A DNA stretch of 43,711 nucleotides from Rhizaria sp. SCN 62-66. Its lineage: Eukaryota. Within the stretch, counting starts at the first letter, position 1. Each line of letters opens with the position of its first letter. The stretch is from NCBI GenBank assembly GCA_001724265.1, contig MEDY01000260.1, forward strand, positions 1-43,711. The letters run 5' to 3'. Positions 7,407 to 34,551 of the stretch are shown one piece after another. The notes beneath the pieces were generated by a model. The model made no database searches. It saw only the letters and a list, made by a program, of their open reading frames with translations, and was not told where the DNA came from. Both the position numbers and the translations under genes were made by a program.

Positions 7407-7450
<44 letters not shown>

Positions 7451-13696: not shown

Positions 13697-14062
13697 TAGA
13701 GAGTGAGGTTGCGGGGCTGTCGTAAGAAGGGATTTGTGGTTGGATATCCGAGTCTCTTTCAACGGTCCTACAAGTATAAAATAGTTAGTAGAATTAAATG
13801 TAAGTTAAAATTATGATGGCGAAACGGAATCGCTAACAACGGTTATCTAATCGAGATACTGATGTTTTAGTGAACGGTTGTTTCTCTCCCGTTCAAATTT
13901 GTCTCGACCTGCTCGGCGACCCAAACCGTCAAATCCAAATCGTGATCATCTTTCAATCTGCTCGATCTCGGTCATCCCATCGTCAAGTGGAGAATTTCGA
14001 TCATATTAGCTTACCCCACATTCTTTACACTGCTCTCTGTTTATTGCATTTGCACAGGACAC
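13697..14062. promoter_or_regulatory. Short divergent (likely bidirectional) promoter interval
   Basis: 366-bp AT-rich spacer between head-to-head ATGs at 13696 (-) and 14063 (+). Inferred from gene geometry only. Confidence 0.4.
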
Positions 14063-16396: not shown

Positions 16397-16427
<31 letters not shown>

Positions 16428-17054
16428 GCCGCCGCAGGCGCCTGTCCCGCCGCGTTGGCTGCGCTGTCGGTCTCGGAGCTGCGCGCGCGCATAGCGCACG
16501 CTAACGCCAAGGCCGCCGCGGTAGAAGCTCGCCACGGGCCCGCACGCCCCGTGTCGATGCTTACCGTCACCAAAGCCGCCGCCGCCGCCGCCGCTGCTTC
16601 TGCGTCTGCGTCGTCTGTTGCTGTGGCTGCGGCAGAGGGTGAGGAGGTGCTCGAATGCCCCGGGTACCGCCACGCGTCCCCGCTGAGCACCCATGCGTCC
16701 CCCACGGGTCCCGACGCCGCCACCGGTCTGCGCGGCGCGGTGGAGAAGAGCGACCTGGTGGCCGCGGCGGCCGCGGCGCACCGGCGCTGGGCGGGCGCGC
16801 TGCGGGCCGCCGCGGCAACGCGCTACCGCCTCGTTGCCAACGTAGTGCACGACGGCGCGGCGGGCAGCGGGCGCTTCCGCGCGCTGGTGCGGCACGAAGC
16901 CAGCGGCAAATGGGTCGAGACGCAGGGGCTGCGTGTCGAGGGCGGGGCCGACACCGAGAAGCTGGTGGCGCTGACGCAGGCGTACGTACAGCTGTACGAG
17001 CTCGAGGTCGAGGGCGAGGATGATGACCGCGCCGATGGGCAGGAGAGCGGGTGA
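14063..17054 (+). CDS. USP39: U4/U6.U5 tri-snRNP-associated protein 2 (USP39/Sad1), ZnF-UBP plus inactive USP domain; exons 14063-14924, 15107-15258, 15452-16048, 16218-17054 (815 aa)
   Basis: CPYLSTVNRERLDFDFEPICSVSLSPLNVYACLVCGVYYQGKG..TPAFAHS...HHVFLSL..FCLPDGYEV; YLPGIVGL; FWPHLFRRHVSPH; FLQWFLNALH; LPRYLVLHYQRFRTNEFFKEKNPTLVSFP; YRLVANVVHDG...GKW. Three GT-AG introns join the exons in frame (862+152+597+837=2448 nt). Confidence 0.95.
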
Positions 17055-17544
17055 AGTGTGCGACGTGTGAAATAATTTCTCATTAAGCGAAAGTTTCGAT
17101 ACCTATGAAACAGCCCTGGAGAGGCTGTTTTAGGGCCGTGCACTGTGAATACATTGACTAAATCAAGTGATAAACTTGTTTTCATAAACAAAATTATATC
17201 CGATATCCTTTGGTAACATTTTTAAACGTTCATATATCACTCCTATCTCTAGCAAACGAAGAATTGAGCTCGGCGCGAAATTTGTGGCTGCTCGGGCCGA
17301 GACCGAAACGATGCAGTGAGAACAATCTAGGCACAATGATGTTGAGATAACACATCATAATACGAAATACTCAATTTATAATACTGATTTCAATATGTAA
17401 TTTCTATGGAATGCAAATATTCACAGTCGCGTTAGCTTTGTTTTCAATGCAATATCAACTCAACCGTAATCTCTCTTTCGGCTCCCTGTCGACGTCTCCC
17501 TTTGATGTCCCACCTCTTTCCTTCGTGTCTCGCAGCGGCCTCTC

Positions 17545-19533
17545 ATGCGTCTTACGCCTCTGCTTGTGGCCCTCGCTGCGGTTTTGGCGCTTGCCTCTGC
17601 GGCTTGCTCCTTTACCAAGGACCAGTACTTCGTGGTAAACAACAAGACGCACCCCGTGCGCACCAGCCCTCTGCTCGACTATGTCTTCACGCCCGACGAC
17701 GCGTTCAGCTACTACGACACCGGCAAGGAGTACAAGGGCGTCGGCTGGACGGGTTACCTGCTCAACGTGACCTCGCAGCGTTGGATGGAGGACGTCTCGA
17801 CGCACCCTGTGTGGTGGCACAACGTGCTGGTGATCCGCCCGCACCATCTCAACAACGACACCAACATCGGCGCGCTCTACGTCACCGGCGACAACAACGA
17901 GGAGGGCCGCACGCCCAAGGAGCTCTCCGCGGACGTCATCGTTGCATCCACGCTTGCCGTCGAATCCAACTCCGTCGTCGCGATCCTCTACAACATCCCG
18001 AACCAGAAGATGGCCTTCAAGAAGCCCGACGGCACCTTCACGGACAACCTCAGCGAAGACGGGCTCGTCGCCTACACCTGGGCGCAGTACGTCAACGCCC
18101 CCGCGCGCGCCGAGCAGGTTGTCTACCTCCCTATGGTCAAGTCCGTGTTTGCCACCATGGACGCCGTCACCAACTACACCTCCAACGCTAAGTTCCAGCG
18201 CGACGGTACGTAAATACCACAGATAGACCGCTATTAATCTCTCTTGAGCACTCCAAACGTCTCTTATTATGTATTTTATTGTAATCATTGCGTGTATTTT
18301 AACTTTTTTTGGATCTAATGGCATTATCTCACCCTTTTGATATCACATGGATCTTGCTTCAACTCATGTTTTTAGGTCGCTTCCCGACTCCTCTGACCGA
18401 GTTCATCGTCTCCGGTGCCTCCAAGCGCGGCGCCACGACCTGGCTCACCGGCGTTGCTGACGCCGCGCTGCCCGCGGCGCAGCGCCGCGTTGTGGGCATC
18501 GTGCCCATCGTGTTCGACGTCGTCGACTTCGAGAACTCCGTCAGCCAGATGTTCAAGAACCTCAACGCCTGGTCGTTCGCCTTCAAGGACTACCGCAACC
18601 ACGGCGTCACCAAGCTCATCGCGCAGCCCGAGCGTCTGGAGCGCCTCACATGCGTTATTGACCCTATGAAGTACGAGTCCTTTGACCAGATTGCCCCCGC
18701 CCTCGTCATCTCCGCCACCGGCGACGAGTTCTTCCAGGTACGATATATATTCAATAACACGGCATAGTGGACTTTCGTTACATATATACTTATTTGTAGT
18801 TGTTATAATGAGGAAATATGCACATTTATTTTCAAAACAAGTGTTTCATATCGTCGATGCTAACTTATGCACTCTTGTAACTTTCTTCTTCTTTGTTTTT
18901 CTCTTGTAGCCCTCTGACGACTGGTCTTGGTGGCCGCGCTTCACTAGCAAGTCGTCCCTGCACGGCTCGCGCCACTACCGCCTGCACGTCGCCAACGCCG
19001 AGCACGCCATGGTGACCGGTCTGCTCACTCTGATCGACTCCGTGCGCGGCTTCGTCACCGCGCTGCAGAAGCCGGACCCGGCCGCCGCTCTGCCGGCCGT
19101 CGAGGTGTCGCTGGCCGAGGACGGCACCGTCACCATGACGGCGTCGGTCAAGCCCAGCGAGGTGCGCGTGTGGCACGCCGAGTCGCTGCCGTCGTCGCCG
19201 CTGGGCCGCCGCGACTTCCGCATGATCAAGGGCCACACCCCCGCGGGGCCGTGCATCCCTCCCGCGATCCTGCTCGAGGACATCTGCGTCAACCCTATCA
19301 TCTGGGCCTCGAAGAAGACCGACGCCGTGCAGCGCGCCGACGGCCGCTGGGAGGCGTCCACCGTCGCGGCTAAGCCCGCCGCCGAGGGCGTGTTCGCGGG
19401 CTACTTCCTCGAGATGAAGTTCGCCGCCAAGCCCAAGGACCTCGTCTTTACCTCGCAGGTCGGCATGCAGCCTATGGCCTACCCCTACGAGGGCTGCAAG
19501 ACTGAGGAGCAGTGCCTCGGCGAGCTTGTCTAA
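17545..19533 (+). CDS. Secreted PhoPQ-activated pathogenicity-related (PqaA) / AprA-like alpha/beta hydrolase; exons 17545-18205, 18376-18737, 18910-19533 (548 aa)
   Basis: Signal peptide MRLTPLLVALAAVLALASA; family motifs LLDYV..PD, LNVTSQRW, WWH, IPNQ, SEDGLVAYTW, LPMVKSV..TMD, FIVSGASKRGATTW, WSFAFKDY, IDP, ATGDEFF, NAEH (Ser-Asp-His triad candidates). Introns 18206-18375 and 18738-18909 splice in frame. Confidence 0.9.
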
Positions 19534-20152
19534 GCTCCGCACAGCTTTATGTGGACTGCGATCAGATATTGTATTACTCTTTGTGGGTGACTTAACATCG
19601 CGATCCCTTACGTCCTCTTTCTTCCTCCTGTTCATTTTTTGATTTGTGCATCTCATTATATCTTGTCAGTGGTAAAAATAATAAAGAATCCTGTATTTTT
19701 ATCCTCACTTTAAGCCAGTGTTTTTAAAGTTGAAATGTCATGTTGTATTGAATACAAAGTGTGCTAGGTACTACTGTAATGTTGAAGTTATAAAGTCCAA
19801 CTACAATAGACAAAGATAAACGTTTAAACGGATAGATTGAAACAAAAGAACTATTTTTAAGACACAGAAACATAAAAACTACGTAGCATAATCGTGTTTT
19901 TGAACACAGACATGAAAATAGCAAGCAAGTGTGAATGCCTCAACACTGATATGTTGAGGTCATGACTGAAGCAAGACTTCCAAGTTTGGTGTGATCACTG
20001 ACTGCAGATAAAAGTGTGATGATGAGTAAACGTGCGGAAGACGCAAGGAAACCCAGAGACAGCCATGCATAAAAAGTTGAAAGGAGAATAACCACTTAGA
20101 ACTGACAACGAAACAATATCAAACGCGACTGTAATGCAAACACAGAGGTTGC

Positions 20153-23100
20153 TTAGACCTGTGTTTGTCCCTCGTCCCCAAGCTTGCTCTCGTCACCCAG
20201 CTGACTGTGAGCAGTAGCAGCCGCAGAGGCCGCCGAAGCCATGGCCTCGGCGGACGTGGCCGGGGAGACGGCGGAATCGAACTGGTCGAGGTGGCTGATC
20301 TTGGCCATCAGTACGCCATCGATCGCAACCTGTCCCTCAACGCCATCCTCCTCATCATCGTCCTCGTCTTCGTCGTAGTCCTCGTCCTCGTCCTCATCCT
20401 CATCCTCCTCCTCAGCGGCGGCAGCGGCGGCGGCGGCGGCGGCGGCCTCCGCGGCGGCCGCGGCCTCCTCCTCCTCCTCCTCGAGAATCTCGTCGTACAG
20501 GTCCCTGAGCCGCGAGTACATCACCGCGGCGGTGGGCCGTAGCGACGGCTCCGGATGCCACCCCTGCACGATGAGCTCGGCCAGCACGGGGTGCGTGCCT
20601 GCGGGCAGCGGCGGCCGGTAGTGGCCGTAGGCGATCAGTTCGCGCACCACGTCCGTCGCGGGCCGGTGCGGGCGAGCGGCGGCCGCGGCGGCCTCGGCGG
20701 CCGCGGCCTCGGCGGTCGCCGCTTCGGCAGTCGCGGCTGCCGCGGCAGCGCGCGCGGCAACCGAGGCCACGGAGGCCGCAGAGGGCATCGGGAAGGCAGC
20801 GATGGTGCTGGGGGAGCGCACGAAGTGCGACCGCGACAGCGATTCGGCGCTCGTCTCACCGTTCCCAGTCGCAGTCGCAGTGGGGGCTGTGGCTACGGCT
20901 GTGGATGAAGCTGTGTCCGCGACAACGGGGGCGGCAGTGCCCTCGTCTTGAGTCGCCAGAACGTCGCCACTCGTCGCAGGAGTCGCAGCGTCGCGATCAG
21001 AAGCGTCGGGCGCGGGCGGGGCCGACGGGGGCGGCAGCGGACCCAGTCCACTCTGACCCTGTGAGTCAGCCGCACCCGCAGCCGAAGTGGGGCCGGCAGG
21101 CTTCTTGGCGCCGCCCGAAGCGCCGCCGGTGGAGACGGCCTCTGCGCGCATCGTGACGGGGTTGCGCAGCAGCATCACGGTCGCCTTGCTCTTGCCGTCG
21201 CCCCCCACACCGCTGCTGCCCGCATTATTGGCGTTGGCAGCGTGGGCGTTGCCGTTGGCGGTGCTGGAGCCAACGAGGACGCGGATCGGCGTGCCCGGAG
21301 ACCCGCCGGCGCCCCCCTTCTCAGCACCAGCACCAGCGCCAGCAGCGTGAGCGAAAGCGGCGGCGGCGTTGGCGTCGGCCTGCTTGCCGTACGACTGCTG
21401 GCGCGCGAATCCCGGTCCAAAGAGCCCGCCGTTGCTGGCCACCGCGGCGGCGCCGGAGTGCGGCGACGCGGGCGAACCGGTCGGGCTGGAGCTAAAGCTC
21501 AGGCTACTGCGCGCCGCCACGGCCGCCGCGGTCGCCGCCATCGACGCCGCGGCGGCGGCCTGGACGGCGGCCGCGGCAGAGGCGGTGGCGTTGGCCGCGG
21601 CGGCCACGGCGGCGGCGCCCTCGATCGTCTGCGCGTTGTACAGCTGCTGCTGTTGTTGCTGCGACAGCGAGGACGAGGGAACCTGCACCGAGCCGCGCAT
21701 CTGCTGCTGCATCTGCTGCTGGTACTGTTGCGGCGTAAAGGACGCGGACGCCAGTAGAGCACGGTTGTACTCCGCGCGCGCAGAAGTCGCAGCCGCACGA
21801 CCCGCCGCGGCAGACTGCTTGCCCACACTAGAACCAGCGCCAGCGCCAGCGCCAGAGAGAGAGATCGTGCCGGAGACGAGGACGGGCGAGTGGTTGCTCC
21901 CGGCGGCGCCCGGGGCCACAAGCGACCCGCGCACGGCCGCCGCGGCGGGCTTGGCGTTAAGCGCGGCACCAGTGGCAGAGTAGGACGCGGCGACGGGGGA
22001 GGCCTCGGGGAAAAAGGTTCTCTTGCCTTTGTTGTCGCCCGCAGCGGCGGCGGAAAACCGGCCGTTGGCGTTGCTGCTGCTGCTGCTGCTGTTGGCCGCG
22101 TCTGCGGCGGTGACGTAGGTCGGCGTCGTGATTATCGACATCGAGCCGCCGCCGTAGGACCGCGTGCTCCCGTGGCCGCCGTTGGTGCTGGCGCTGGACA
22201 CAGCGGCACCGGTGAGCCGGGGGTCGACGGTGAGGTCGCGGCGCCGACGCCGGCGCTGCTGTCCGCCAGCGTCCGCAGCCTCGTCGTTGGCAGTGGCGGC
22301 GGCGGCGGCAGAGGTGGCGGCCGCCTGCTGCTGCGAGCGGATCGTGGGCGCGCGCGTCATCACCGGCATCGTCAGCGTCCGCGCGCCGAGCCCTGCACCG
22401 GCACCGGCACCAGCTGCGGTGGCGCTGGCAGCGGCGTGGAGTGCGCTGGGGTCGCGCGAGAGCGCGAAGCCGCCAGCAGATACAGAAGCCGACGCCGAGG
22501 CTGAGGACGAGAGCTGAGGCTGCTGCGAGCCCTGCTGCGAGCCAAGCTGCTGCTGCTGCATCTGGCTGCGCTGCTGCTGCCGCGGGCTCGCCGGGTGCGC
22601 GAGATGAGCGGGATGCGCGGGCGTTTGACTGACGCCGACGCCGAGTGCCGTCTCTGAGCTCGACCGGCCGACGCCCATCGCGCCAGTGGCGCCCGCGGCG
22701 GCGACGGTCGCGGCCGCCGTGGCGGCAGTCGTCACAGTCGTGTCGCCCACAATGTTCGACGACGCCCAGTAGTGAGACTTGGCTTTATCACCGGTTGCGT
22801 TCGCAGCAGTGCTCGACAGAGCTGCAGCAGCGGCGGCCGACGGGGACGCGGGGTACGCAGCACCGCTGTTGTCGGGACTAAGGGGGTACTTAGACGGGAA
22901 CACGGACCCGCGCGGCGCGAGAATGGAGCCGCGTGGCAGCGCACTGTGCATCACACTGCTGCCACCGCCAGAGCCAGCGCCGCCGCCACTGACGCTGCTG
23001 GTGCCGGAAGTTAGGCCGCGCGAGCGCTGACCGGGGGAAAGCACCCCGGATTGCTGCGGCTGCTGCTGCGTGCGGGGGGGGAAGCCCGCGGCTGAGGACG

Positions 23101-26100
23101 AAGCCAGCGACCCTGACGCAGGGACAGAGGCCACAGAGCCGGCGGAGGCCGAGGCGGAGGACGCGGCAGGCGGCGACGGCGCGAACGGACCGTGCAGCCC
23201 GTGACCGAGACCAAGACTTTGGCCGTAAGCGCCGTGGCCGTAGTTGAGTGAGGCGCGCGCGAGGATGAGGTCGACAGTGCGGTGCGCCTCCACTGCGATC
23301 GCGCCGTCGCGCGCGGACATGCCCGGCACGGACACCGCCATCGGCGCCACCACGGGTGCCAGAGCGCGCGCGCGCGGCACCGGCGAGCCTGCCTTGGCCG
23401 CCGCAGCCGCAGACGACGACGGCGCCGGTGCTGTCGCCGCCGCCGCAGCGGCCGCCGCGGAGGCAGCGGCTGCAGCGGCGACGCCGGCGGGGTCTGCGAC
23501 TGCGAGCGCGAGCACGCGTTTGACTGACGCGGGGGTGGCGGCCACCATGCGCGTCGCACGGCCGATCGGTGAGTGCGCGGCCGAGTCCGCCTCGGCGGAA
23601 GCGGCCGCGGCGGCGGCGACGGCGGCCTCGGCCATCACCGCAGCGGCAGCGGCGGCCGAGGCGGCCGTGGCCGTGGGCACCGCGTCGATGACGATGTGCT
23701 GCGGGACCAGACGGCCGCGTGTCGCCGCCGGCGGGGACTTGCCCGCAGCGCTGGCGCCCGCAGTAGCAGTGCCCGTGGCAGAGGCAGTTGAGGTGGCGGG
23801 GGCGGGGGCGGGGGCTGTGGTGTGCGGGCTGGCGATGAGCGCGCCGGGTCTGTTGGCGAGGACGATCGAGAACGACGGCATCCGACCCAGCGCGGACTCC
23901 TCGCCGGCACCACCAGCACCGGCACCGGCCGTCGCATCGCCGCTCTCGCCCGCGCCCGCACCCGCGTCCGTGCCGTCGGCGGCCGCCGCGTCGAGCGACT
24001 GGTCGGGCAGCCTCTCGCCAAAGTAGAACGGCCCCCCCGCCGCCGCGGCCCCGCCCGCCTGCGCATGCGCCGCCGCCTCGGCCTCGGCCGCCGCCGCCGC
24101 CTCCGCGGCCGCGGCCTCGGCGGCCTCTCGCGCGCGCCTCTGCGCGCGCAGCGCGGCGTTGCGGGCCTTGCGCGCAGCGTCGGCGACGACGTCCGCAGCC
24201 TTCTCGTCGGCCTCGACGACGTCGACGAGCTCCTGGAACGGCACCTCGCGCGCGACAATCTCCCATAGTACGCAGGCGAGGGAATACACGTCCGCGGCCG
24301 TGGAAAAGGCCTCGAGGCGCATGAACTCCGGCGCCAGCCAGTTGACGGCCTCGGGAATCGTCAGCGCGCGCCGCCGCGTCCGCAGCTGCTGCCGCAAGCG
24401 CTGCTCCTGGCGCCGGCGCAGGCGCGCGCGCGCGCGGCGGCGCGCCTTGACGGCGAGCGTGCTGCAACATGCGCCGCAGCCGCCGGAGGACGGCTTGGCG
24501 GCCGCGGGGGAGGCGCGGGAGCGGCCGGGTGCCACGGAAGCGCCGGTGCTGCTGCGCTTCATGTTGTTGTTCCCGCCGCCGCCGGAGCTGCGCGGCGACC
24601 GGGCGTTCGCCCCCGCCGTGCCGGTGACGGTGCTGCCGGCGGAGAGGTTGGAGCCGGCGCCGAAGGACCCTTCGGAGCTGAAGCGGTCGAGCTCGCCGTC
24701 GCTGGCATTGCCGGGGGTGTCGTCGTCGTCGCCACTGCTGTCGCTGCCGTCACTTTCACCGCCGCCGCCGCTGTTGTTGTTGCCGTCGTCGCTGCTGCTG
24801 GAGCTGGAGTCCTCCATGCCCAACGCCAGCCGCACGTCCGGCAGAGGCTCCTCCCCGCCCGCGCCGCGGCCGCTCGCGCCGCCGTCGTCGTCGCCGTCGT
24901 CCGCGCGCGCCACACACGGGCAGCAGGAGCAGCGGCGGATGCGGAAGCCGACGCCGCCCCAGAGGTCGCCCGCGCCGCACCACGCGCACGCGCACAGCGA
25001 CGCGAACGCCAACCGGCAATAGGAGCGCGATCCGCAGCAGATGGAGTTCTTGCCAGCGTGGCCACGCTTGCGCTTGAGCTCGTCGCCCCCGCTGTGCAGG
25101 TGGTGGTGGTGGTGGTTCTGCCGCCGGTGGTGCTGCGCGCCGGTGCTGCGCCGCTTACCTCCCGCTGCTTTCCCGCCGTTATTAGCGGTGGTCGCGGTGT
25201 TCTCGCTGGCGTTGCCGGTGGCGCTCTGCACGAGGGCCCCGCTGCTGGTGTTGCCCACCGACGAGCGCCCACCGCCGCCGCCGCCGAGGCCGGTGTTCTG
25301 CCGGCTCTGCGAAGAGGGGTTGCGCCGGTGCCGCGCGCCGCCATTGCTGCCGCCGCGTCTGTGCCCGCCGCCGCCGCCGCCGCCGTTGGTGGTGGTGGCG
25401 GTGCTGGCGCTGCTGAGGTTGCTGCCCGTGCTGTGCAGCGACTGCAGGCCCCCGCCGCCGCCGGTGTGGCCGACGACACCGCTGTTGTGGTCGCCAGCGA
25501 GACCGCTGCCGGCACTGGAGAAGCTGCTGATGTCAGCAGTGGCGGTGCCGGCGCCGGCGGCGGAGGCGGCGCCGGCGGATCGCGCGGGCTCGGGCTCAGT
25601 CGCGACAGCGACGTCTACGTTGACGTCTACAGGCGAGGGTGTCGGCGACGGGGCCTGGGCCAGTGAGTCGGGCGCGGTGGTGGCGAGAGTCGACGCGAAC
25701 TGGACGCGCTGGGAGCCACCACGGGGGCGCGCGCCAGCAGCGGCAGCGGCAGCAGCAGCAGCAGCGCCTGTGTTCGCACCAGCGTTGGCGTTACCGGTCG
25801 TGTTGCTGGTATCGTTGCCGCTATCGTTGCCGTAGCCGTTCGCGCTAGCGCTTGTGTTTGCGACGGTGTTTGACGTGGTGCTCGTATCGAACGAAGGGAC
25901 ACCGAAGAGAGTCGAGCTGAGACTGGAGCTGATGCTGTTGACAAAGCTGTTGTTGACAATGTTCGCGATTAAGCCGGTATTGGCGTTGTTGTTGATGTTC
26001 GCGTTACCGCTCGAGGTCTTGACCGAGACGTGGTTGTCGCTGTCCGAGCCGGTGCTACTCTCGAACTCGCTGCTCTTGGCGTCGACCTCGCTCTCGCTGT

Positions 26101-27762
26101 GAATCGCATCAACGGTGCGACCGTGGCGGTGGCCGTGAGAGCGGGCGCGAGTGCGCGTGCGCGTGTGGGGGATCGTGTTGCCGTCGTTGTCAACGGCATC
26201 GTTGCCTGCATTGCTGGTGACTGTGATGTTGTTCTCCACGTCGGCCTCCGCGTCGGAAACGGCCTCGACCTCCCACTGCCACAGCCCGCTCACACCGCCG
26301 CTGAGGGCGGCGTGTTGTGCGCGGTTGCTGCCGCCGCGCAGCTGGTGACCGTGAGCGCGACTGTAGCCGTGAGCGTGGCCGTGAGCGTGGCCGTGAGCGT
26401 GGCCGTGAGCGTGGCCGTGAGCGTGGCCGTGAGCGTGGCCGTGAGCGTGGCCGTGAGAGTGACCGTGGGCATGCGAGCGCGAGTGAACCGGGCAGTGACC
26501 ATGACCATGACCGTGACCGTGACCGTGACTGTGAGCGTGGTGGTTGTGGGGATGTAACGGCAACGGGGGCGCGGCCAAAGGCCCGCCACGCTTATTGCTG
26601 CTGCTCCTACTCGAGCCCTTATTCTTGTTCTTGCTCTTGTTCGCAGTGTCACTGTCGTCTTCAAGCGCAACGTCGCGCACGAGCGCGTCGCCGGCGCTGC
26701 CCCGGAGGCTGTATCCGTGCGTGTGCCGGTGACCGTGAGCACCACGTGTTCCGCGTGCACCCGCGGCAACGTCGCTGTCGTCGCCCTCATAGGTGCCGTC
26801 CGCGTCCTCGTCCTCGTCCTCGTCATCGTCGTCATAGTCTGCGAGGTCGGCCGTGGCCGCGGCAGCCGCGGCGGCCTCAGCCTCCGCCTCCGCGGCGGCC
26901 TTGGCGGCCGCCACGGCGGCCCGGGCGACGCCACGCGCGCTCAGCCCCGCGGCCGCCGCCGAGGCCGTGGCGGCCGCGACGGCGATCTCGGACTCGCTTG
27001 TCACAGCCGACAGCCCCACGTCGAACATCGCGGCCGTCGCCGTCGCGCTGGCGGCGGCAGCGGCGGCGGCGGCGGCCGAGGAGGAGGACGCCGACGAGCC
27101 GCTGCGGACGAGCGCGAGCGAGCGGCGCGGCAGCGACGGCGACAGCGACGGCGCGCGCCCCTGCTGCAGCTGCTGCTGGTGACCGACGCTGACGAAGCTG
27201 CCACGGCTGCGCCCGCCGAGGCTGAGCCCCAGCGACGGCACGCGCGCGAAGCTACCGTCGCTGCTACTGTGCACGAGAGCGCCGCCGGCCGCGAACGACG
27301 CGCGCCGCGGCCCCAGCGCGGACGGCGTGGCGGCGTCCAGGGGGCCGTGGGCGGTGTTGGTGTAGTTAGCAAGGCTGGAGCCGGGCCCGAAGCTCGGCGC
27401 GCGGGTGCTTGCCGACAGCGACTGCCGCGTGCTCGTGGAGTTGTTGTTCGCTGGAGCCGCGGTATTAGCGGCGACGGTGCGCTTGTTGTTGTTGCTAACA
27501 GCGTTACCAGTGGCGCCGCCGGGGGTGGCGGAGGGCGAGGACGCGGACTGCTGCTTTTGCAGCGACAGCGAGCTCAGCATAGGGCTCGACAAACTCGTCA
27601 CTAGCAAACCGCCGCCGTGGCCGTCGTCGTCGTCGTCATCGTCATCGCGATGGGTGACCCCGTCGAGGTCGATCTCAGCGGAAGCAGTCTTCTTCCCCTT
27701 CGCAGCGGCCTTCGCTGCGGGCTTGGCCGCGCTGGCGTTGGGCCCCAACTGGAGCCACTCGC

Positions 27763-27795
<33 letters not shown>

Positions 27796-30700
27796 CGTGC
27801 CCGACGCCGCCGTGCTTACCAACAGCTCCGGCGCCGTCGTCGTCGTCCTCGCCGTCGCCGCACTCCTCCTCGATGCGGCCGCCGCCGTCCCACCGCTCCG
27901 CGCGCGCCAGCGCCGGGCCCCGCGCCTTCCCGCCGGTCGACGCGTGAGAAGAAGCGGCTGCATTAGCGCCGGGGGCGCTGTGGCTGGGGACGAAGCCGCC
28001 GAGGCTGCTTGCGCTGGAAAGCCGGAAGAAAGCGGACCCGCGCGGCAGTCCCGGCGCACTGGCGCTCGCTACCACCACGCCACCGCCGCCGCTGTTGTTG
28101 TTAGCGTCACTGTGCATCCCGTGACCGTGGGCGGCGCTGTCGGCGTTGAAGTCGTATAAGTTGAGCCCAAGGTTGCTGCCGTCAGCGCCGCCACCAGCAG
28201 CAGCGCCGCTGGCGCTACCGTCGTGGTCGTAAGCCTGGTTGAACTCATTGCACCCGTCGCCGTTACCGCCGCCAAACTCGTCATCGTTGTCGCCGCTGTC
28301 GGGCTGGGGCGCGGGGTACATGTCGCCGTCTTCGTCCATCAGGAACCCGTCGACGCCTAGGTTCGAGTAGCGGTTTTCGCGGTTCAGCAGGAGCACGGCG
28401 GTTTTGGCCGCCGTGGACAGCTGCTCCAGCGCCAGGTAGGGCTGCGGCCACGGCCCCCACTCGCCGTGGTGGAAGACAAGCCGCCCCTCCTCCTCCTCCT
28501 CCTCTTCTTGCTGGTCACCGTCATCGTCAAACTCGTCCTCGTTCTCGTCGGCGTAGTCGTCGCCGTCAGCACTCCAGTCGCCGCCGTTGTCAACACCGGC
28601 GTACTCGTTGTCGTCGCCACCAGCATCGGCATTCTCGTTGTTTTTGTTCTTGTTCTTGTCTCCGAGACCGAGGCCGAGCGTGACGCCGTCCTCTTCTTGC
28701 TCCTCATCCTGGTTGCCACTCTCACTACCAGCATTCGCCTTCGCGGCGGAAGCTTGCTGTTGCTGTTGCTGTTGCTCCTCCATCTCAGCGGCGTTAGCGC
28801 TGGCGATGACACCCCCCTCGTGCCGCTGCGGGCGGCGGACAAACCCACGCCTCTGCCTCTGCGTCGGCCTCTGCGTCATCGCCGCCTCGCCACCGCCGTT
28901 GCCGTTGCCATTAGTGCCGTCAAAACCGCCCTCTTCGTCCGCCTCCGTCACGGTCACCAGCCGGCGAGTGCTTCCGGTCGCGTCCGCCTCCGCCTCCGCC
29001 TCCGATTGCGACTGGAGCTGAAGCTGGAGCTGCGCGTTGGCCGCCGCCGACTCCGCCGCCGCCGTGGCCGCCGCCGCCGCCGCCGCGAGCGCGGCGACGC
29101 GTCCGTGGCGTACCCACTCCGGCGCAAAGGCCGGGTGCCCGTAGAAGCTCAGGTGCTTCGGCGGCCGCGGCGGGACCACGATGGGGGCTGCACTGTGGGT
29201 CGCGCTGTGAGTGGCGCTGTGGGCGATGATCGAGAACTGGGAGGATAGGGACGAGTGGGACCCGCGAGAGGAGCCGGAGCCGGAGCCCAGGGCAGTGTTG
29301 CGGTGGCGTCGGCCCGAGCCAGAGCCCGCGCCCGCGCTCGAACCGGAGCCCTGAAGAGATGCAGCTTCGGCGCTGCCAGAGCCAGAGCAAGAGTGTTTCC
29401 CACCGCTGCCGTTGCTACTGCCGCTGCTGGCGACGCTGCCGCAGCCGCCAGCGCTGCCCTCGGCGGTATTGGGGTTGGAGCCGCGGGACCGCGCGCTGCC
29501 GGTCGAGCCGGCGACGCTGGCGGCGTCGCTGTCGGCCCCCGGCTCGTTACTATGGCGGCCGCCGCCGGCGTTGGCGCCGTTGAGCGGGGCGGGGTAAGGC
29601 ACGATGACTGTGGGCGGGGAGAGCAGGTGCAGGGTGATGTTGCTGCTGTTGCTGGGAAGTGCGAGAGCGTTGCCGCCCGCACAGCCGTCCGCGTTGTTGT
29701 TGACACTGTTGTTGTTGTTGCCATTGTTGTTGTTGACTCTGAGGCCGAGCGAGGACGAGCACACGAGTCCCGTAGCCGTGGCGGCGGCGGCGGGCAGCGG
29801 CACCGCGGTCGACACGCCGACCACAGTGCCCACGTCCACGGTCCCGGCGTCGTCGGCCATGCCCACGCACAGCGCCCCCGCCTCGCCCATGCTAAGGCTG
29901 TGCAGGTGCGAGTGCGAGTGGCCGACGCCGCTCTGGCTGGGCCCCAGGAACGACGCCGAGCCAGAGACAGAGGCCGAGACGGCGGCAGCGGCCAGCGCGC
30001 CGGCGTTCGCGGACGACCGGTCGTCGAAGCTCTGCACATCACTTGCACCAGTATTGTAACTGTTCGCGGCGTCGTCGTTGTTGTAGCCGCTCTGCTGCTG
30101 CTGCTGAATTTGCGACACAAACGATGCTGCGAGAGGCGCGTGAGTGATCGGCGCAACGGAAAACGCGTCCGCGCCCTCGAAATACACCGCACTCGCAGAG
30201 GACGGCATCTCACAGTGCGCCGCTTGACCGCCGAACGGGCCCTGGCTCTGGCCCTGTCCCAGCGCGGCCGCAGACGCCGACGCGGGGCCCGGCAGCGAGC
30301 GCAGAGAGCAGCCCATGACGGAGCCCGTCGCGGACAGCGCGCCGAGGCTGCTTGAGCTGGCGGGCTGGGCAACAGTGCTTCCGACACCGTCGCCGTTCGA
30401 CGCGGCGGCGGCAGTGGCGGAGAGTGTTGAGCTTGACTCGGACATCGACGAGATCGAGGATGCCGTGGGCAGGATGTACGGCCCCGCGGGCGCCTGGACC
30501 AGCGCCACGGACAGCGTGCCGTCACGGCGACCGTGGGCAGCGGAGTGACCGTGGGCAGCAGAGTGACCGTGGGCGGCGGTGCTGGTAACCACCGGCACGG
30601 GGGCTGGGCCCATCACGCTACGCACCTCAGTCGCACTGGAGCTGCTCGCGCCAGAGCCCGCGCCAGAGCTGTCAAAGTTGCTGTTAGTGTTGCCGTCGCC

Positions 30701-33700
30701 GTCGCCGAGCCCGGCCGCGCTCCAGTCGACCTGCGCGGGGTGCTCCAGCGGCGCGCCGAACGCGTGCGCCTGCACCGGCGGCTCGGCAGTCGCACCGTTG
30801 CTGTTGTTGCCGTTGTTGGGGGTGTTCGAGCTGAGGCTGCCGCGGCGCTTGCTCCCGCCGCCAGCCGACGGCAGCGGCGGCTTGTTGTTGCCGTTGATGT
30901 GGTTACTGTTGGTGTTGAGGTTGTTGAGGTTGACAGCGGCCGAGTCCGCCGCGAAGCCCACGGTGACGCCGCCCGCGGTGCGCAGAGCGGGCATGTCGTC
31001 GCTGCCCACGCCCGCCGCGCTCGCCTTGTACACAGCGGCACCACCGCCGCCGCTGCCGAGAGTGTCGCTGCTGAATAGGGCCATGTTGCCGTTGCCAGCG
31101 CCAGCGCCAGCGCCAGCGCCGGTGGGGTTGGGGTAAGCGGTGGCGTCGGTGCTGGCCGTTGTTGTGATCACAGCGTCACTCTGCCGCTGCTGCTGCTGCT
31201 GCTGCTGTTGCTGCTGTTGCTGCTGCTGCTGTTGTTGTTGCTGTTGTTGTTGCTGCTGTTGGGTCGTATTCGCGGGGCTGTTGGCGCCCGCGATGGTGGA
31301 CGCGGAGGCGACGAACCCGGCACCCTGGTTGCGGCACGCCGACGCCGGCACGGGCGCGTTTACGGCCTCGGTCGCAAGCAGGCGCGTCGATAGCTCGAGA
31401 TCGGCCAGCTTGACGATGCCGTCAGTGCCCAGCAGGAAGTTGCCCGACTTGATGTCCAGGTGGACCACGGGTCGGTGGCGGGAGTGTAAGAAAGCCACGC
31501 CGGCGCAGCAGTCGAGCGCCAGGCGCACCTGAGTCCGCAGCGAGAGCGGGACGCGGCAAAACGCGCGCGCTCCGGGCCCGTCCGCCGCCGCGCTCGCGCC
31601 CGCGCCGGAGCCGGCGGCGGCGGCCACGGCGGCCGCGGCCGCGGCGTCGGCTTGGTCGGCCCCCGCGGCGGCCGCGGCGAAGGTCGGCGCCGGGGCCGCG
31701 GCGGCCAGCGCGGCGGCCGTGTCCGACGGCAACAGGGAGAAAGGCTCCGACGGCGGGGGGCTGCCCGCCGCTGAGCCCGTGGAAGTTAAGCCGCCGCCAG
31801 TTAAGCCGCGTTTGCGTGAGGTGCCGGCTGTGGATGTCGCCGCCGCTGCCCCACTGGCGTTATTATTGTTGTTGTCGACGTCGTCCACGGTCACAGTCTC
31901 ATCACCATTGTGACCGTGACTGAGTGCAGTGCGATTGTTATTGTTATTAGCGCCGAGAGTCGCCATCTCGATCTCGGCACCGCTACCAGTCTCCTTCGAC
32001 TCGTCGTCGTTATCAATCGCAGAAACGGCAGCATGAGACTTTTTGTTCTTACGCTTGCCTTTCTTTCTCCCGCTCTTAACAACAGCTGCACCAGCAGCAG
32101 CAGCAGCAGTAGCATCAGCAGCAGCAGTATGAGCGTCTGCGTCAGCAACATGCTTGTCCTTCTGCTTCTTCCCACCTCCGAAGCACGGCAGACACCCAGA
32201 GTCAGAGCCGGCGGCACTGTCCCTGCCCCCCGCCTTCGTCCCTGAGGTCGGCGAGGCGACCGTGAGCGCGCCTGCTCCACCGGCGCCCTCTCCGCCGCCG
32301 TGGTCGCCGCTGCGGCCACTGCGGCCCCACCCGCGGCCGCGCCCCTTGGCCTCCGCCGCCGCGGCCTCGGCCTCGGCCTTGCGCTGCGCCGCCAGCCTGA
32401 TGGCGTGATCCACAGCGGCGACGGCGTCCTCTCCCTTGCCGTGGACGATTGCGAAGAGGGACGTCGCGCACAGCTCCATGACCATCGCCACGGCGGGCGG
32501 CATCACGCAGATGCCCTCAACGCCCACTACGTAGCGCGATCGTAGCGACCCCAACGCCGCGGCCTCGCGGTACAAGGAGTGCACGAGCCCGGCCGTGAGC
32601 TCCATCGCGTAGATGAGCTTGATTGCAACCGGCTTGCCCTTGTACCGGCCCTTGTACACGCGCGCAAAGCTGCCCTGGCCCAGCAGCTTCAGTCCGCCAC
32701 CACCGCCGCCACTAGAGCTAGAGCTTGAGGCAGCGTTTTCGTCGCCGTTGCTGTCGCCCTGCTGCTGCTGCTTGGAGTCGTCCGAGTCGATGATGAGCGC
32801 GTTGAAGTTGACCAGCGGCAGTCCCAGCGAGTCGGCGTGCGCGACGGTGGCCGCAACCGACGGCGCCATGGGGTTCTCCTCGAGCACTTCGGCGATGCGG
32901 CCCTTCTCGCCCGCCATGCCGACGTTGACGAAGCCGCGCATGTGGGCGTTGGTGGCGTCGTAGAGCGCGATGTTGACGGCGCCCTGCCAGTAGAGCGAGT
33001 CATCGCAGCACGCCTTGAAGATGGCCCAGGGCGACAGCGCGAGGAACAGGATCGACGAGGCGAAGGAGAAGCAGTAAGCCGAGTCGATGTTGCCGAAGCG
33101 GAGCAGCGTGGCGACTAGGTCGACGGTGTAGATGAAGGTCCAGTACGCGGCGTAGGGCCGCGCGGCGGGGCGGCGGAAGAGGCGCTTGTTGTCGGGGTAG
33201 AGCCAGACGACGAGGTAGAAGGTGCCAAAGATGAAGCTGTTGATGGACATAAACACGGTCGCCAACAGGTACTCGTCGTCGTCATTCACGTCGACGTAGT
33301 ACACGTACAGAAAGCGCATCGTGCTGTTGACGAGCCCCATGACGGTGGCACCCTTCATCGAGCGGATGTACGTCTTGCGGCCCGCGCCCTGCGACATGAG
33401 CACCAGGACCGTGGCGTCGAAGCAGAACTGGCGGAAAAAGCTCGCCACAGCCTCGGCCACTGCGGGCCCCGCGGTGTTGTCGTAGATGATACTGTAGGGC
33501 CAGATCTGCGAGATGACCAGCGCGATGGACAGAAAGATGCAGGTAAGCCACATGAGCCGTGAGTAGAGCGGCAGCAGCAGCGGCGTCGGCTTCGCGTCTT
33601 CGAGCCACCCGTTGGCCTCCCACCGCCGCTGCGCCCGGCGCGCGCGCAGCGCGGAGACGATGTTTAAGAGCGCGAGGAGGCCGAACTGGATAAAGTAGAC

Positions 33701-33787
33701 GAACAGCACAATCGTGCCCTGCTCAGGGTTCGACCGCACGGAGTCACCCGTGTAAAGCCGGCGGCACCGGCCGGCCACGGTCGACAT
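20153..33787 (-). CDS. 7-transmembrane receptor fused to a TKL-like protein kinase with huge low-complexity insertions (4544 aa, single exon)
   Basis: Seven hydrophobic helices in aa ~25-265 ending DSLYWQG. Kinase motifs in order: LGQGSFARVYKG..VAIK, REAAAL, MVMELC (~32443-32690); LALDCCAGVAFLH..VVHLDIKSGNFL..VKLADLE (~31390-31550); NWLAPE..ADVYSLACVLWEI...PF (~24235-24362); RPPLP..LAELIVQGW..EPSLRPT (~20490-20660). Confidence 0.92.
26366..26461. repeat. 12-bp tandem repeat GCCGTGAGCGTG (7 perfect copies plus 1 variant) encoding (HAHG)n on the - strand
   Basis: Read directly in the sequence; lies within a larger His-rich tract of the kinase ORF. Confidence 0.95.
31187..31261. repeat. CAG/CAA microsatellite encoding a 25-Gln tract in the kinase
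   Basis: 75 nt of CTG/TTG triplets on the + strand, about 45 codons after the DLE motif. Confidence 0.95.
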
Positions 33788-34551
33788 GTCGGGAGACAGA
33801 GAGAGTCCTACTTACGACCTGGCGGCGGCGGCGACGGCGGCGGCGGCGGCGCTGAAAGAGCGACGACGACTGCGGCGGCGCAACGTGGTAAGGATTGACC
33901 GGGCTGTGTGTAAGTGAGCGCGTGCGCTGTGCGACGGTGTGAAGCGACGCGACGACGAGTTAAGAAGAGTTCGCTCTTGCGTGATTAGTGTTCGAGTGCT
34001 CTGTCAGTCAGTCGCAGAAGCGAGAAGCAAGAGTTGTGTGAGGTCTGGGATAAACCGGAGGAGCGCTCGGATAGAGACGCTGCTGTGGTTGTGATGGGTG
34101 TCGCAAGAAAATCACAACAAGTGGGTTGTAAGCGGCGAGATCAGGGGAGGAAGGCGGGAGTGGAGAGGGATGTTACTCAAGTAGCGTCAGAGTCAACGTT
34201 CGGAGGTCAGCTGGTAGCCTTAACAGTAACATATAGAAACATAATTAAAGAATTAAATAAACATGCTCCTCTTATATCAGGGATAACTTCCTATTTTAAA
34301 ATATGACACTCAAATCTTGAGAAAATCTTACCCAAAAAAAGTCATCGATTTCTCCTCAAAGCCCCATCCTCCGCAGCCGGCTGGGCGAGGGCAAGGGTCG
34401 CTCCAAGGCTTGATCAGGACCAGAATAGAATTGTTTTTCTTTCTGCAATAAGCTCGTAGAATACGACCGCGGTTGAATTTTCAGCTGCAGTTTGATCTTG
34501 CTTTTTGGTCTCTTTGGTTTTACTCGACACAGTACAACCAACTTCGTCACG
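33788..34551. promoter_or_regulatory. Divergent promoter / 5'UTR interval
   Basis: 764-bp spacer between head-to-head ATGs at 33787 (-) and 34552 (+), with an AT-rich core at ~34220-34350. Confidence 0.35.

What the first reader, a model, noticed from the sequence alone, without database searches (positions are those of the whole stretch)
20490..32690. 'Exploded' protein kinase: one catalytic domain spread over ~4000 residues with a ~2340-aa activation segment
Seen: the kinase subdomains occur in correct order but in four blocks. The N-lobe (~32443-32690) is followed by a ~300-aa insert, then alphaE-HLD-DLE (~31390-31550), a ~2340-aa insert between DLE (31394-31402) and the P+1/APE region (~24326-24362), alphaF, a ~1190-aa insert, and finally alphaG-I (~20490-20660). 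The frame has no stop over 13.6 kb. The inserts are GC-rich and codon-structured, unlike the 150-212-nt AT-rich introns elsewhere in this window. The catalytic Lys, alphaC Glu, D-x-K-x-x-N, Mg-binding Asp, APE, alphaF Asp and subdomain XI Arg are all retained. Established: activation segments are normally ~20-40 aa. Inference: a possibly active enzyme folding across multi-kilo-residue disordered loops (scaffold or condensate tether), or else inserts removed by an unrecognised RNA- or protein-level processing step.
Basis: partly seen in the sequence, partly recalled or inferred. Interest (0 to 1): 0.85.

Follow-up and report, generated by a model that had tools for sequence, protein, structure and literature searches.

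The report
Membrane kinase with giant disordered loop inserts
One uninterrupted 4,544-codon gene encodes a seven-helix membrane protein whose kinase domain is split into four pieces by three huge low-complexity inserts, an extreme case of a known habit of kinases, not a new kind of processing.

Summary
Window 20153-33787 (minus strand) is one open frame of 4,544 codons. It encodes a multi-pass membrane domain followed by a TKL-type kinase domain in four collinear blocks: residues 362-452, 739-821, 3123-3253 and 4374-4435. The blocks are separated by inserts of about 290, 2,300 and 1,120 residues.

The inserts look translated, not spliced:
- They have 0 in-frame stops, against 3-66 in each other frame.
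- Their codon usage matches the gene's core.
- They contain no AT-rich intron-like stretch, no Rfam match and no intein.
- PolyA-RNA-library contigs lie inside them, and no credible splice joint was seen.

Relatives form a widespread membrane-domain-plus-TKL family in which short members have an ordinary 25-40-residue activation segment. Two close relatives, of 1,966 and 2,069 aa, already carry 750-810-residue activation segments. They share short conserved islands inside the inserts with this protein, and every spacer between those islands is longer here.

My verdict is lineage-specific inflation of three surface loops by low-complexity sequence. This is the same phenomenon as Greatwall/MASTL (548 aa) and Plasmodium kinases, taken about four-fold further. 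Catalytic activity and the mature protein's state were not tested. Interest is moderate.

The parts
20153..33787 (-). Single open reading frame of 4,544 codons plus the stop (protein P0001). No intron candidate lies inside it.
33002..33730 (-). N-terminal multi-pass membrane domain (about residues 20-262). It is homologous to the seven-helix bundle of the family.
   Evidence: HMMER gives homology to P0008 over residues 33-451. The AlphaFold model of P0008 has 7 long helices in residues 5-257. Hydropathy alone gives 4 segments above 1.6 in P0001. No Pfam family matches.
32432..32704 (-). Kinase block 1 (residues 362-452): N-lobe with the Gly-loop GQGSFA, VAIK Lys390, alphaC Glu408 and the hinge.
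31574..32431 (-). Insert 1 (residues about 453-738), rich in Ala/Gly/Ser. It sits in the alphaD-alphaE loop.
   Evidence: It maps to P0008 residues 412-417, between helices 407-413 and 420-439.
31325..31573 (-). Kinase block 2 (residues 739-821): alphaE, catalytic loop HLDIKSGN, DLE in place of DFG, and about 23 conserved residues of the activation-segment start.
   Evidence: 78% identical to P0002 over 83 residues..
24422..31324 (-). Insert 2 (residues 822-3122, about 2,300 aa), inside the activation segment. It is low-complexity sequence rich in A/G/S/N/Q, with a poly-Gln run, a His-Gly/His-Ala repeat and conserved islands.
29096..29170 (-). Conserved island A in insert 2 (residues 1540-1564). 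Its core is GHPAFAPEWVRHGRV.
   Evidence: 72% identical to P0002 and 80% to P0180. The motif is present in 3 of 3 clade members.
28313..28486 (-). Conserved island B in insert 2 (residues 1768-1825).
   Evidence: 72% identical to P0002 over 58 aa (E 1.7e-22) and 65% to P0180 over 60 aa
24893..25027 (-). Cys-rich patch in insert 2 (residues about 2921-2965). It is weakly conserved.
   Evidence: HSP to P0002 at E 0.003. The [RG].YC.LA motif is present in 3 of 3 clade members.
24029..24421 (-). Kinase block 3 (residues 3123-3253): a basic stretch, P+1 loop, APE, alphaF (Asp3166) and a following helical stretch.
   Evidence: 61% identical to P0002 over 132 aa, and 93% over the 42-aa core..
20669..24028 (-). 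Insert 3 (residues 3254-4373, about 1,120 aa), rich in Ala/Ser/Gly/Pro, in the alphaF-alphaG loop. It carries three short conserved motifs at residues 3363, 3419 and 4251.
   Evidence: It maps to P0008 residues 530-585, where pLDDT is below 50 at 561-581. Motifs are; composition.
20483..20668 (-). Kinase block 4 (residues 4374-4435): alphaG to alphaI with the subdomain XI Arg4417.
   Evidence: 71-76% identical to P0002 and P0180..
20156..20482 (-). Acidic, Ala-rich C-terminal tail (residues 4436-4544). P0002 has no such tail.

Best explanation
This is an intron-less gene of an unidentified GC-rich microbial eukaryote. It encodes a member of a widespread family of receptor-like proteins: a seven-helix membrane domain fused to a TKL-group protein kinase.

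In this lineage, three surface loops of the kinase domain have been inflated by low-complexity, presumably disordered sequence that is translated together with the core. The loops are alphaD-alphaE, the middle of the activation segment, and alphaF-alphaG. The inflation is diffuse. Every spacer between conserved anchor motifs is 1.6 to 4.3 times longer than in the two nearest relatives, as in-frame slippage-type growth would give. It is not one inserted module.

The roughly 370 conserved residues still carry all the catalytic residues and can pack into one kinase fold. The inserts contain a few short conserved islands that probably serve as docking or regulatory motifs.

Shown: the anatomy, the open frame, the coding character of the inserts, the family series and the conserved islands. 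Inferred: that the inserts stay in the mature protein, that they are disordered, and that the enzyme is active.
For: (1) Coding character of the inserts.
- They have 0 in-frame stops. Codon-position-preserving shuffles give means of 2.8, 26.0 and 10.4 stops, with minima over 200 shuffles of 0, 13 and 3. The other five frames hold 3-66 stops per insert.
- Synonymous-codon usage in frame 0 correlates at 0.65/0.88/0.92 with the gene's conserved parts and at 0.84/0.89/0.89 with the neighbouring SET gene. The off-frames give 0.35-0.69.
- GC3 is 0.72-0.84.

(2) No intron signature.
- No 120-nt window below 48% GC lies between 20210 and 34133, while the neighbouring genes have many.
- None of the 17 AT-rich GT..AG-type candidates lies in the ORF.
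- Rfam gives 0 matches.
- Pfam finds only the kinase families in the protein, and 0 of 7 long alternative-frame ORFs in the inserts match anything.

(3) RNA.
- A polyA metatranscriptome run (X1) yields contigs identical to the window inside the inserts: 21067-21466, 22532-22808, 24447-24743, 24825-25104, 27103-27340 and 29933-30352. That is 6 of the 8 X1 pieces listed, each with 0 differences.
- All 15 listed joints have at most 23 letters on the shorter side and none has CT..AC ends.

(4) Family.
- HMMER over 1.84 billion representatives gives 4,063 hits at E<=1e-3 and 25 at E<=1e-30.
- Short members (P0008 655 aa, P0006 729 aa, P0009 721 aa) have DLE/DFE-to-APE distances of 25-39 residues.
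- P0003, P0004 and P0007 have 112-236, P0002 has 750 and this protein 2,356.
- P0004 is one uninterrupted ORF in a 52% GC contig.

(5) Constraint.
- Against P0002 the blocks are 51-93% identical, and two islands inside insert 2 are 72% identical, while the rest does not align.
- A third relative, P0180, shows the same.
- Seven anchor motifs are collinear in 3 of 3 proteins.

(6) Fold.
- The AlphaFold model of P0008 (30-sequence alignment) has pLDDT 84.7 and pTM 0.82. It shows seven membrane helices plus a kinase domain that matches TNNI3K, CTR1 and B-Raf at TM 0.79-0.86, normalised to the target.
- The three insert sites fall in loops of that model.
- The four blocks of this protein, given as separate chains, were placed together with block 4 against alphaE and alphaF. 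The score was 0.75 and the best of 3 controls 0.32. That mark was reached by 51 of 78 solved complexes and 2 of 108 mismatched pairs. The runs agree in at least 96% of contacts and the partner's pLDDT is at least 83.
- Many kinase folds are solved, so this pass shows likeness to a kinase C-lobe. It does not show that this copy folds.

(7) Genome habit. Neighbouring ORFs are also full of Ala-rich low-complexity runs.
Against: - No listed RNA contig bridges a block/insert boundary by 31 letters, and contigs cannot show a full-length transcript.
- The RNA library could contain DNA.
- For insert 1 the stop-codon argument is weak: the position-preserving shuffles also reach 0 stops.
- The exact lengths of the low-complexity stretches rest on one assembly that I could not re-map. 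No listed contig spans the stretch.
- The DFG glycine is Glu (DLE) and the HRD arginine is Leu (HLD). Activity is therefore not guaranteed, although DLE/DFE/DME is common across the family.
- A rough Gaussian-chain estimate from general polymer theory, my own inference, puts the extra loop-closure cost of the three inserts near 10 kcal/mol. That raises doubt that the domain folds unaided.
- The 14 variant sites seen inside the ORF in the laid contigs all fall in the inserts, 9 non-synonymous and 5 synonymous. This fits weak constraint on most of the insert sequence and says nothing for function.
Confidence: 0.75

Rival explanations
1. Pseudokinase or scaffold. The protein is made with its inserts, but the kinase core no longer catalyses, or no longer folds as one domain. 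The blocks would be conserved for binding or allosteric roles, and the protein would act mainly as a very large disordered membrane-anchored scaffold.
For: - DLE replaces DFG and HLD replaces HRD.
- The third Gly of the Gly-loop is Ala.
- My rough estimate gives a large entropic cost of closing three giant loops (inference).
- The central alphaF helix emerges from the ribosome thousands of residues after the N-lobe, which follows from the sequence order.
Against: - Lys390, Glu408, Asp778, Lys780, Asn783, Asp796, APE, Asp3166 and Arg4417 are all kept.
- D[LFM]E is common across the family, including short members that model as normal kinases.
- The blocks are 71-93% identical to relatives.
- Human Greatwall is active despite a roughly 500-residue activation-segment insert, and remains active when that insert is removed (PMC5342071, passages read).
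Confidence: 0.2
2. Some or all inserts are removed from the mRNA as unconventional GC-rich in-frame introns ('exitrons'). On this view the open frame is kept only because part of the transcripts retain them.
For: The inserts begin and end in poorly conserved sequence. Contigs cannot exclude minority spliced forms.
Against: - The genome's recognisable introns are AT-rich and 141-355 nt long, and none lies here.
- The inserts show coding codon usage and no stops over about 3,700 codons.
- Conserved peptide islands lie inside the inserts in three species.
- Contigs from the RNA library lie inside the inserts, and no joint has 30 or more flanking letters or CT..AC ends.
Confidence: 0.05
3. Assembly artefact. 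Low-complexity repeats were mis-assembled, which inflated or mis-joined the inserts.
For: The laid contigs break at many repeat positions, and none of the listed pieces spans the gene. The sequence is rich in GCN-type cryptic repeats.
Against: - The order of seven anchor motifs is the same as in two independently assembled relatives.
- There are no long high-identity duplications. The repeat families are 60-78% alike apart from one 12-nt tandem array.
- One frame stays open throughout, which random mis-joins would break two times in three.
- Listed contigs of two runs match the window with 0-6 differing letters over 238-610 laid nt.
Confidence: 0.05
4. Protein-level processing. The inserts are cut out or cleaved after translation, by proteolysis or protein splicing, and the core pieces stay together non-covalently.
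For: The four blocks given as separate chains are modelled as one C-lobe/N-lobe assembly: score 0.75, best control 0.32, a mark reached by 51 of 78 solved complexes and 2 of 108 mismatched pairs. Cleavage of extensions has been suggested for a Plasmodium kinase (PMC526369, passage read).
Against: No Hint/intein or protease domain appears in Pfam at E<=1. No conserved junction motifs were seen at the insert borders. The complex model probably reflects memory of kinase folds.
Confidence: 0.04

Closest known systems
Greatwall / MASTL (AGC kinase with a 'non-conserved middle region')
   Same: A large, poorly conserved insert sits between the DFG-position motif and APE, splitting the N- and C-lobes. 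In human MASTL it is 548 residues, the longest human kinase domain at 801 aa (PMC6930252, passages read). It is dispensable for activity in vitro (PMC5342071, passages read).
   Different: It belongs to a different kinase group (AGC, not TKL), so the resemblance is an analogy and not homology. The insert here is about 4 times longer, is one of three, is mostly low-complexity, and carries islands conserved among three relatives.
Kinases with alphaD-alphaE inserts (RPS6KC1; PDGFR/VEGFR/KIT 'split kinase domain')
   Same: Insert 1 sits at the same loop. RPS6KC1 has 480 residues there (PMC6930252, passage read). The 'split kinase domain' of PDGFR-type receptors I saw only in search listings; the rest is recalled.
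   Different: Those are single inserts in otherwise compact domains of animal kinases. Here the insert accompanies two far larger ones.
Plasmodium falciparum kinases with low-complexity insertions in the catalytic domain
   Same: Charged, polar or repetitive inserts lie within the catalytic domain. They are attributed to a genome-wide habit, have unknown function, and are thought to sit in loops so that folding is spared (PMC526369, passages read).
   Different: That genome is AT-rich with Asn/Lys-type repeats, whereas this one is GC-rich with Ala/Gly/Ser-type repeats. I found no report there of an insert of thousands of residues (full texts not read beyond the passages).
Seven-transmembrane TKL kinases (Capsaspora CAOG_04937 'TKL protein kinase'; Dictyostelium 7TMK1)
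   Same: The architecture is the same: an N-terminal multi-helix membrane domain followed by a TKL kinase. CAOG_04937 (P0013) is a direct HMMER hit (E 2.1e-37; name). Other members come from Diphylleia, Bigelowiella and Amorphochlora.
   Different: Those members are 630-800 aa long with ordinary loops.
CTR1 / TNNI3K / B-Raf / RIPK (TKL-group kinase structures)
   Same: These are the best sequence and fold matches of the core.
   Different: They have DFG and HRD motifs, compact loops and no membrane domain.

Membership tests
Eukaryotic protein kinase superfamily (Pfam PF07714 / PF00069), TKL-like | Profile score above Pfam's gathering cut-off | tested here: met
   87.2 bits against 23.1, and 85 bits against 31.7
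Eukaryotic protein kinase superfamily (Pfam PF07714 / PF00069), TKL-like | All subdomains present in canonical order (N-lobe, alphaE/catalytic loop, P+1/APE/alphaF, alphaG-I) | tested here: met
   Four collinear stretches cover CTR1 residues 44-297
Eukaryotic protein kinase superfamily (Pfam PF07714 / PF00069), TKL-like | Catalytic residues: beta3 Lys, alphaC Glu, catalytic Asp, Asn, metal-binding Asp | tested here: met
   K390, E408, D778, N783 and D796 align to the CTR1 equivalents
Eukaryotic protein kinase superfamily (Pfam PF07714 / PF00069), TKL-like | Canonical HRD and DFG triplets | tested here: not met
   The triplets are HLD and DLE. D[LFM]E is common in the family. These triplets are typical of the superfamily but not strictly required of it.
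Eukaryotic protein kinase superfamily (Pfam PF07714 / PF00069), TKL-like | Phosphotransfer activity | not testable with these tools
   Needs an enzyme assay
Seven-helix-membrane-domain + TKL kinase family (P0002-P0010, Capsaspora CAOG_04937) | Homology over both the membrane domain and the kinase N-lobe | tested here: met
   P0002 at E 8.7e-172 over residues 5-528, P0008 at 1.5e-41 over 33-451, P0013 at 2.1e-37
Seven-helix-membrane-domain + TKL kinase family (P0002-P0010, Capsaspora CAOG_04937) | Seven transmembrane helices | tested here: inconclusive
   Seven long helices appear in the model of relative P0008. In this protein hydropathy alone gives 4 clear segments. No model of this protein itself was made.
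TPRA1/GPR175-like membrane proteins (Pfam PF10160 Tmemb_40) | Match to the Pfam profile | tested here: not met
   The language-model look-alike score is 0.94 (a lead only). Pfam gives no hit for the N-terminal 345 aa, and 0 of 30 family members match PF10160.
Greatwall/MASTL family | AGC-group kinase core with C-terminal tail/hydrophobic motif | tested here: not met
   The best matches are TKL kinases (CTR1, TNNI3K, MLK, B-Raf). No AGC kinase appears among the 60 PDB sequences listed. The protein works like Greatwall only in having an activation-segment insert.
Intein-containing proteins | Hint/intein splicing domain bordering the insert | tested here: not met
   Only the kinase families were found by Pfam at E<=1 over the whole 4,544 aa
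Spliceosomal or self-splicing introns as the nature of the inserts | Intron-like composition and boundaries, or group I/II RNA structure | tested here: not met
   Searches give 0 of 17 candidates in the ORF. One search gives 0 Rfam matches. One search shows no credible joint.

The most novel reading that the evidence does not exclude
The protein is a catalytically competent kinase whose activation segment is about 2,350 residues long, several-fold beyond the longest I found documented. The conserved islands inside that segment (GHPAFAPEW..., the 58-residue island B, the Cys-rich patch) would be docking or autoregulatory modules. The activation loop itself would then have become a membrane-tethered signalling scaffold whose occupancy gates the P+1 site. 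Folding of such a core, with alphaF made minutes after the N-lobe, would be a natural test case for how far a single domain can be 'exploded' and still assemble.
Probability: 0.3. Interest if true: 0.6.

Novelty: new variant of a known kind. Interest (0 to 1): 0.4.

Why it matters
This may be the most stretched protein-kinase domain described. About 370 conserved residues are spread over about 4,070, and the activation segment is about four times that of Greatwall/MASTL. I found none longer, but my search was limited.

If the enzyme is active, it sets a practical upper bound for loop insertions that a kinase fold tolerates. It also offers a natural series of relatives (25, 112-236, 750-810 and 2,356 residues) for studying loop-length effects on folding and regulation.

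The finding is also a reminder for annotation pipelines. Domain callers reported only fragments: Pfam gave 3 stretches. Gene callers could be tempted to invent introns here.

If the enzyme is not active, this is one more example of low-complexity inflation in a repeat-prone genome.

Tried and rejected
- **Word-index protein searches.** Searches with the N-terminal 480 aa and with region 1-480 among long proteins found nothing. The full HMMER scan was needed.
- **Metagenome-contig scan.** It returned only 2 loci (L001, L002), both the distant P0004 type at 36% identity. The contigs of the close relatives P0002 and P0180 were not retrievable, so no dN/dS could be computed.
- **Whole genome.** None is held for this window, so I could not ask whether other kinases of this organism are equally inflated.
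- **AlphaFold on residues 1535-1830 (islands A and B, 3-sequence alignment).** Mean pLDDT was 51.5 and pTM 0.27. Only an Ala-rich helix was confident. This gives no conclusion on whether the islands fold.
- **Atlas look-alike of the membrane domain to TPRA1/GPR175.** Pfam did not confirm it, so I keep it as a lead only.
- **RNA cover at the flanks.** X1 has depth 0 at 19900-20380 and 0.26 at 33849-34300, where X2 has 5.6 and 3.8.
- **The many short joints and loose ends.** Their sides are at most 23 letters and they sit at repeats. I read them as cross-matches of low-complexity sequence, not as splicing.
- **Variant sites in the laid contigs (9 non-synonymous, 5 synonymous, all in inserts).** There are too few, at depths mostly under 8, to measure selection.
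- **Alternative-frame and antisense ORFs inside the inserts.** 0 of 7 have a Pfam match, so a nested or mobile gene is rejected.
- **Island A as a second 'APE' motif from a partial duplication of the P+1 loop.** I considered this. Only the short AFAPEW string resembles it and nothing else of the C-lobe follows, so it stays a curiosity.
- **Paper supplements.** These are closed. The Dictyostelium kinome's domain drawings and tables (PMC1420674, Figure S3 and Table S1) could bear on whether 7TMK1 has the same membrane domain, but I did not see them.

Full report
**What is there.** The minus strand of window 20153-33787 is a single ATG-to-stop frame of 4,544 codons. Measured stop to stop it is 4,552 codons, and no other frame overlapping it exceeds 619. 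Pfam finds only protein-kinase families in the product: PK_Tyr_Ser-Thr at 87.2 bits (cut-off 23.1) and Pkinase at 85 bits, each in three stretches.

phmmer against all PDB chains aligns four collinear pieces to TKL-group kinases. Against Arabidopsis CTR1 (3ppz) they are residues 368-452, 745-806, 3148-3187 and 4387-4431, matching chain residues 44-129, 131-191, 203-242 and 253-297. TNNI3K aligns the same way.

**Are the inserts coding?** Four lines of evidence say so.
- Frame 0 has no stop in any insert. The other five frames have 3-15 stops in insert 1, 12-66 in insert 2 and 11-19 in insert 3.
- Shuffles that keep the composition of each codon position expect 2.8, 26.0 and 10.4 stops. The minima over 200 shuffles are 0, 13 and 3. 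The argument is strong for inserts 2 and 3 and weak for insert 1.
- Synonymous codon usage of the inserts in frame 0 correlates at 0.65/0.88/0.92 with the conserved parts of the gene and at 0.84-0.89 with the neighbouring SET-domain gene. The two off-frames give 0.35-0.69.
- GC3 is 0.72-0.84.

The inserts are Ala/Gly/Ser-rich. They have 10-15% hydrophobic residues against 37-41% in the blocks, and 61-69% of 25-residue windows are of low entropy against 0% in the blocks. Only a small part is true tandem repeat. The dispersed repeat families are GCN-type cryptic repeats at 60-78% identity whose spacings are mostly multiples of three, plus one 12-nt His-rich array. There are no long near-identical duplications.

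**Are they introns or other removable elements?** The neighbouring genes show many AT-rich dips. One clear intron starts AAG|GTATGC at 15259/15260. A crude scan finds 17 AT-rich GT..AG- or CT..AC-bounded candidates of 141-355 nt in the window, and none in 20153-33787. No 120-nt window between 20210 and 34133 falls below 48% GC. Rfam gives no match, so no group I or II intron. Pfam gives no intein or other domain. None of the 7 longest alternative-frame ORFs inside the inserts matches anything.

**RNA.** Two public runs hold parts of the gene. When they were laid on 19900-34300, the polyA metatranscriptome run X1 gave contigs identical to the window that lie wholly inside the inserts. These are 6 of its 8 listed pieces: 21067-21466, 22532-22808, 24447-24743, 24825-25104, 27103-27340 and 29933-30352.

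No listed joint has more than 23 letters on its shorter side or the CT..AC ends expected of a minus-strand GT-AG intron. These are contigs. They show presence in an RNA library, not a full-length transcript, and no listed piece bridges a block/insert border.

**Relatives.** Word-index searches failed. A full HMMER scan with residues 1-810 found 4,063 proteins at E<=1e-3 and 25 at E<=1e-30. The top hits share both the N-terminal membrane domain and the kinase. Named members come from Capsaspora (CAOG_04937, 'TKL protein kinase'), Diphylleia, Bigelowiella and Amorphochlora. The family is therefore widespread among eukaryotes.

A motif-based measure over the 155 proteins in hand shows a graded series:
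- DLE/DFE-to-APE distances are 25-39 in short members (P0008, P0006, P0009).
- They are 112-236 in P0003, P0004 and P0007.
- The distance is 750 in P0002 and 2,356 here.

D[LFM]E in place of DFG is common in the family, and HLD marks the closest subgroup. P0004 is one uninterrupted 1,201-codon ORF in a 52% GC contig, where chance open frames are short.

**Structure.** An AlphaFold model of P0008 (655 aa, 30-sequence alignment) is confident, with pLDDT 84.7 and pTM 0.82. It shows seven long helices in residues 5-257 followed by a kinase domain. That domain matches TNNI3K, CTR1, B-Raf and RIPK structures at target-normalised TM 0.79-0.86.

Alignment of this protein to P0008 places the three inserts as follows:
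- Insert 1 lies between P0008 residues 412 and 417, the alphaD-alphaE loop.
- Insert 2 lies at residues 483/484, the middle of the activation segment, just before the P+1 loop.
- Insert 3 lies in residues 530-585, the alphaF-alphaG region. This is already a 56-residue, partly unmodelled loop in P0008.

**Conserved islands.** Against the nearest relative, P0002 (1,966 aa), the alignable segments are collinear:
- residues 4-463, 51% identical
- residues 739-821, 78%
- island A, 1540-1564, 72%
- island B, 1768-1825, 72%
- a Cys-rich patch, 2921-3021, weak at E 0.003
- residues 3123-3253, 61%, with 93% over the APE/alphaF core
- residues 4376-4434, 71%

A search with the island region found a third member, P0180 (2,069 aa), with the same islands. 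Seven anchor motifs occur in the same order in all three proteins.

From the positions, every spacer between anchors is longer here than in P0002 or P0180. Island A to island B is 210 residues against 96 and 108. Island B to the Cys motif is 1,100 against 255 and 363. PASV to PPP is 825 against 265 and 258. This is diffuse inflation and not the insertion of one element.

The islands are as conserved as the catalytic core, which argues that the insert is translated and partly functional. A model of residues 1535-1830 was of low confidence (pLDDT 51.5), so the nature of the islands is open.

**Can the pieces make one domain?** The four blocks were given as separate chains. Block 4 was placed against alphaE (residues 747-769) and alphaF (3161-3192) with a score of 0.75, against 0.32 for the best of 3 controls. 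That mark was reached by 51 of 78 solved complexes and 2 of 108 mismatched pairs. The runs agree in at least 96% of contacts and the partner's pLDDT is at least 83. Kinase structures are abundant, so this shows that the blocks still look like complementary parts of a kinase. It does not show that they fold in the cell.

**How it most likely works.** The protein is a membrane-anchored, receptor-like TKL kinase. Three of its surface loops have grown by in-frame low-complexity expansion in a genome prone to it. The neighbouring ORFs show the same Ala-rich runs.

The core is probably assembled after translation, with the loops extruded as disordered chains. The conserved islands are candidates for docking or autoregulatory motifs. 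HLD makes it a non-RD kinase. From general knowledge, such kinases often do not depend on activation-loop phosphorylation, which would make a giant activation loop easier to tolerate (inference).

Two further inferences of mine come from general knowledge, not from any call. A Gaussian-chain estimate puts the extra loop-closure cost near 10 kcal/mol in total. At a few residues per second, the ribosome makes alphaF several minutes after the N-lobe. Both leave room for the pseudokinase/scaffold rival.

**Comparison with what is known.** Large inserts at exactly these positions are documented.
- Human MASTL/Greatwall has 548 residues in the activation loop and is the longest human kinase domain at 801 aa. 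RPS6KC1 has 480 residues between alphaD and alphaE (PMC6930252, passages read).
- The Greatwall insert is dispensable for activity (PMC5342071, passages read).
- Plasmodium kinases carry low-complexity inserts within the catalytic domain (PMC526369, passages read).
- Kinases fused to seven transmembrane helices were noted in Dictyostelium (PMC1420674, passages read).

In my literature searches I found no kinase with an activation segment of thousands of residues. These searches cover open-access text only, and supplements were closed.

**Verdict.** The feature is real. It is a new, extreme variant of a known kind. Interest is moderate at 0.4. It would rise if activity of the full-length protein were shown.

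Noticed in passing
window 38439-42101 (minus strand): This is a 1,220-aa SET-domain protein. Pfam matches only residues 300-353 to the C-terminal half of the SET profile (positions 62-104 of 105). A GRGLFATRDI-type start lies near residue 12, and Thr/Ala-rich low-complexity runs lie between. A second domain in this window may therefore be stretched by inserts.
   Followed up: partly
window 1-7698 (minus strand, open at the window edge): This ORF of more than 2,566 codons at 71-79% GC has only a sub-threshold TFIIA-like low-complexity match (27.9 bits against a cut-off of 36.2). It is another giant low-complexity protein next door.
   Followed up: no
window 26366-26540: A 12-nt tandem array (8.5 copies, 97% matches) encodes a His-Gly/His-Ala repeat of about 50 residues inside insert 2. 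Its high copy identity suggests recent expansion. It may bind metal.
   Followed up: no
window 31181-31258: A run of 26 CTG (CAG on the coding strand) gives a poly-Gln tract about 45 residues after the DLE motif.
   Followed up: no
window 29096-29170 (residues 1540-1564): Island A contains AFAPEW, which resembles the kinase P+1/APE motif found 1,600 residues downstream. This could be chance, a relic of a partial duplication, or a pseudo-P+1 element. It is conserved in 3 of 3 clade members.
   Followed up: partly
window 14000-19500 and 34400-37200: The neighbouring genes have GC-rich exons (GC3 near 0.9 in this gene's core) interrupted by sharply AT-rich GT..AG introns of roughly 150-270 nt. 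Exons and introns therefore contrast unusually strongly in composition.
   Followed up: partly
family-wide (P0002-P0151): Many members replace the DFG glycine with Glu (DLE/DFE/DME). Some members have what looks like another domain inserted after the catalytic loop, for example HMDLKSSNFL followed by a W..RDVQ.WL-type stretch in P0031, P0032, P0088 and others. This was seen in the regex output and not analysed.
   Followed up: no
N-terminal 345 aa (window 32753-33787): The membrane domain has no Pfam family. A language-model look-alike points to TPRA1/GPR175 (Tmemb_40) at 0.94. It may be a distant GPCR-like fold that is uncatalogued as a kinase partner.
   Followed up: partly
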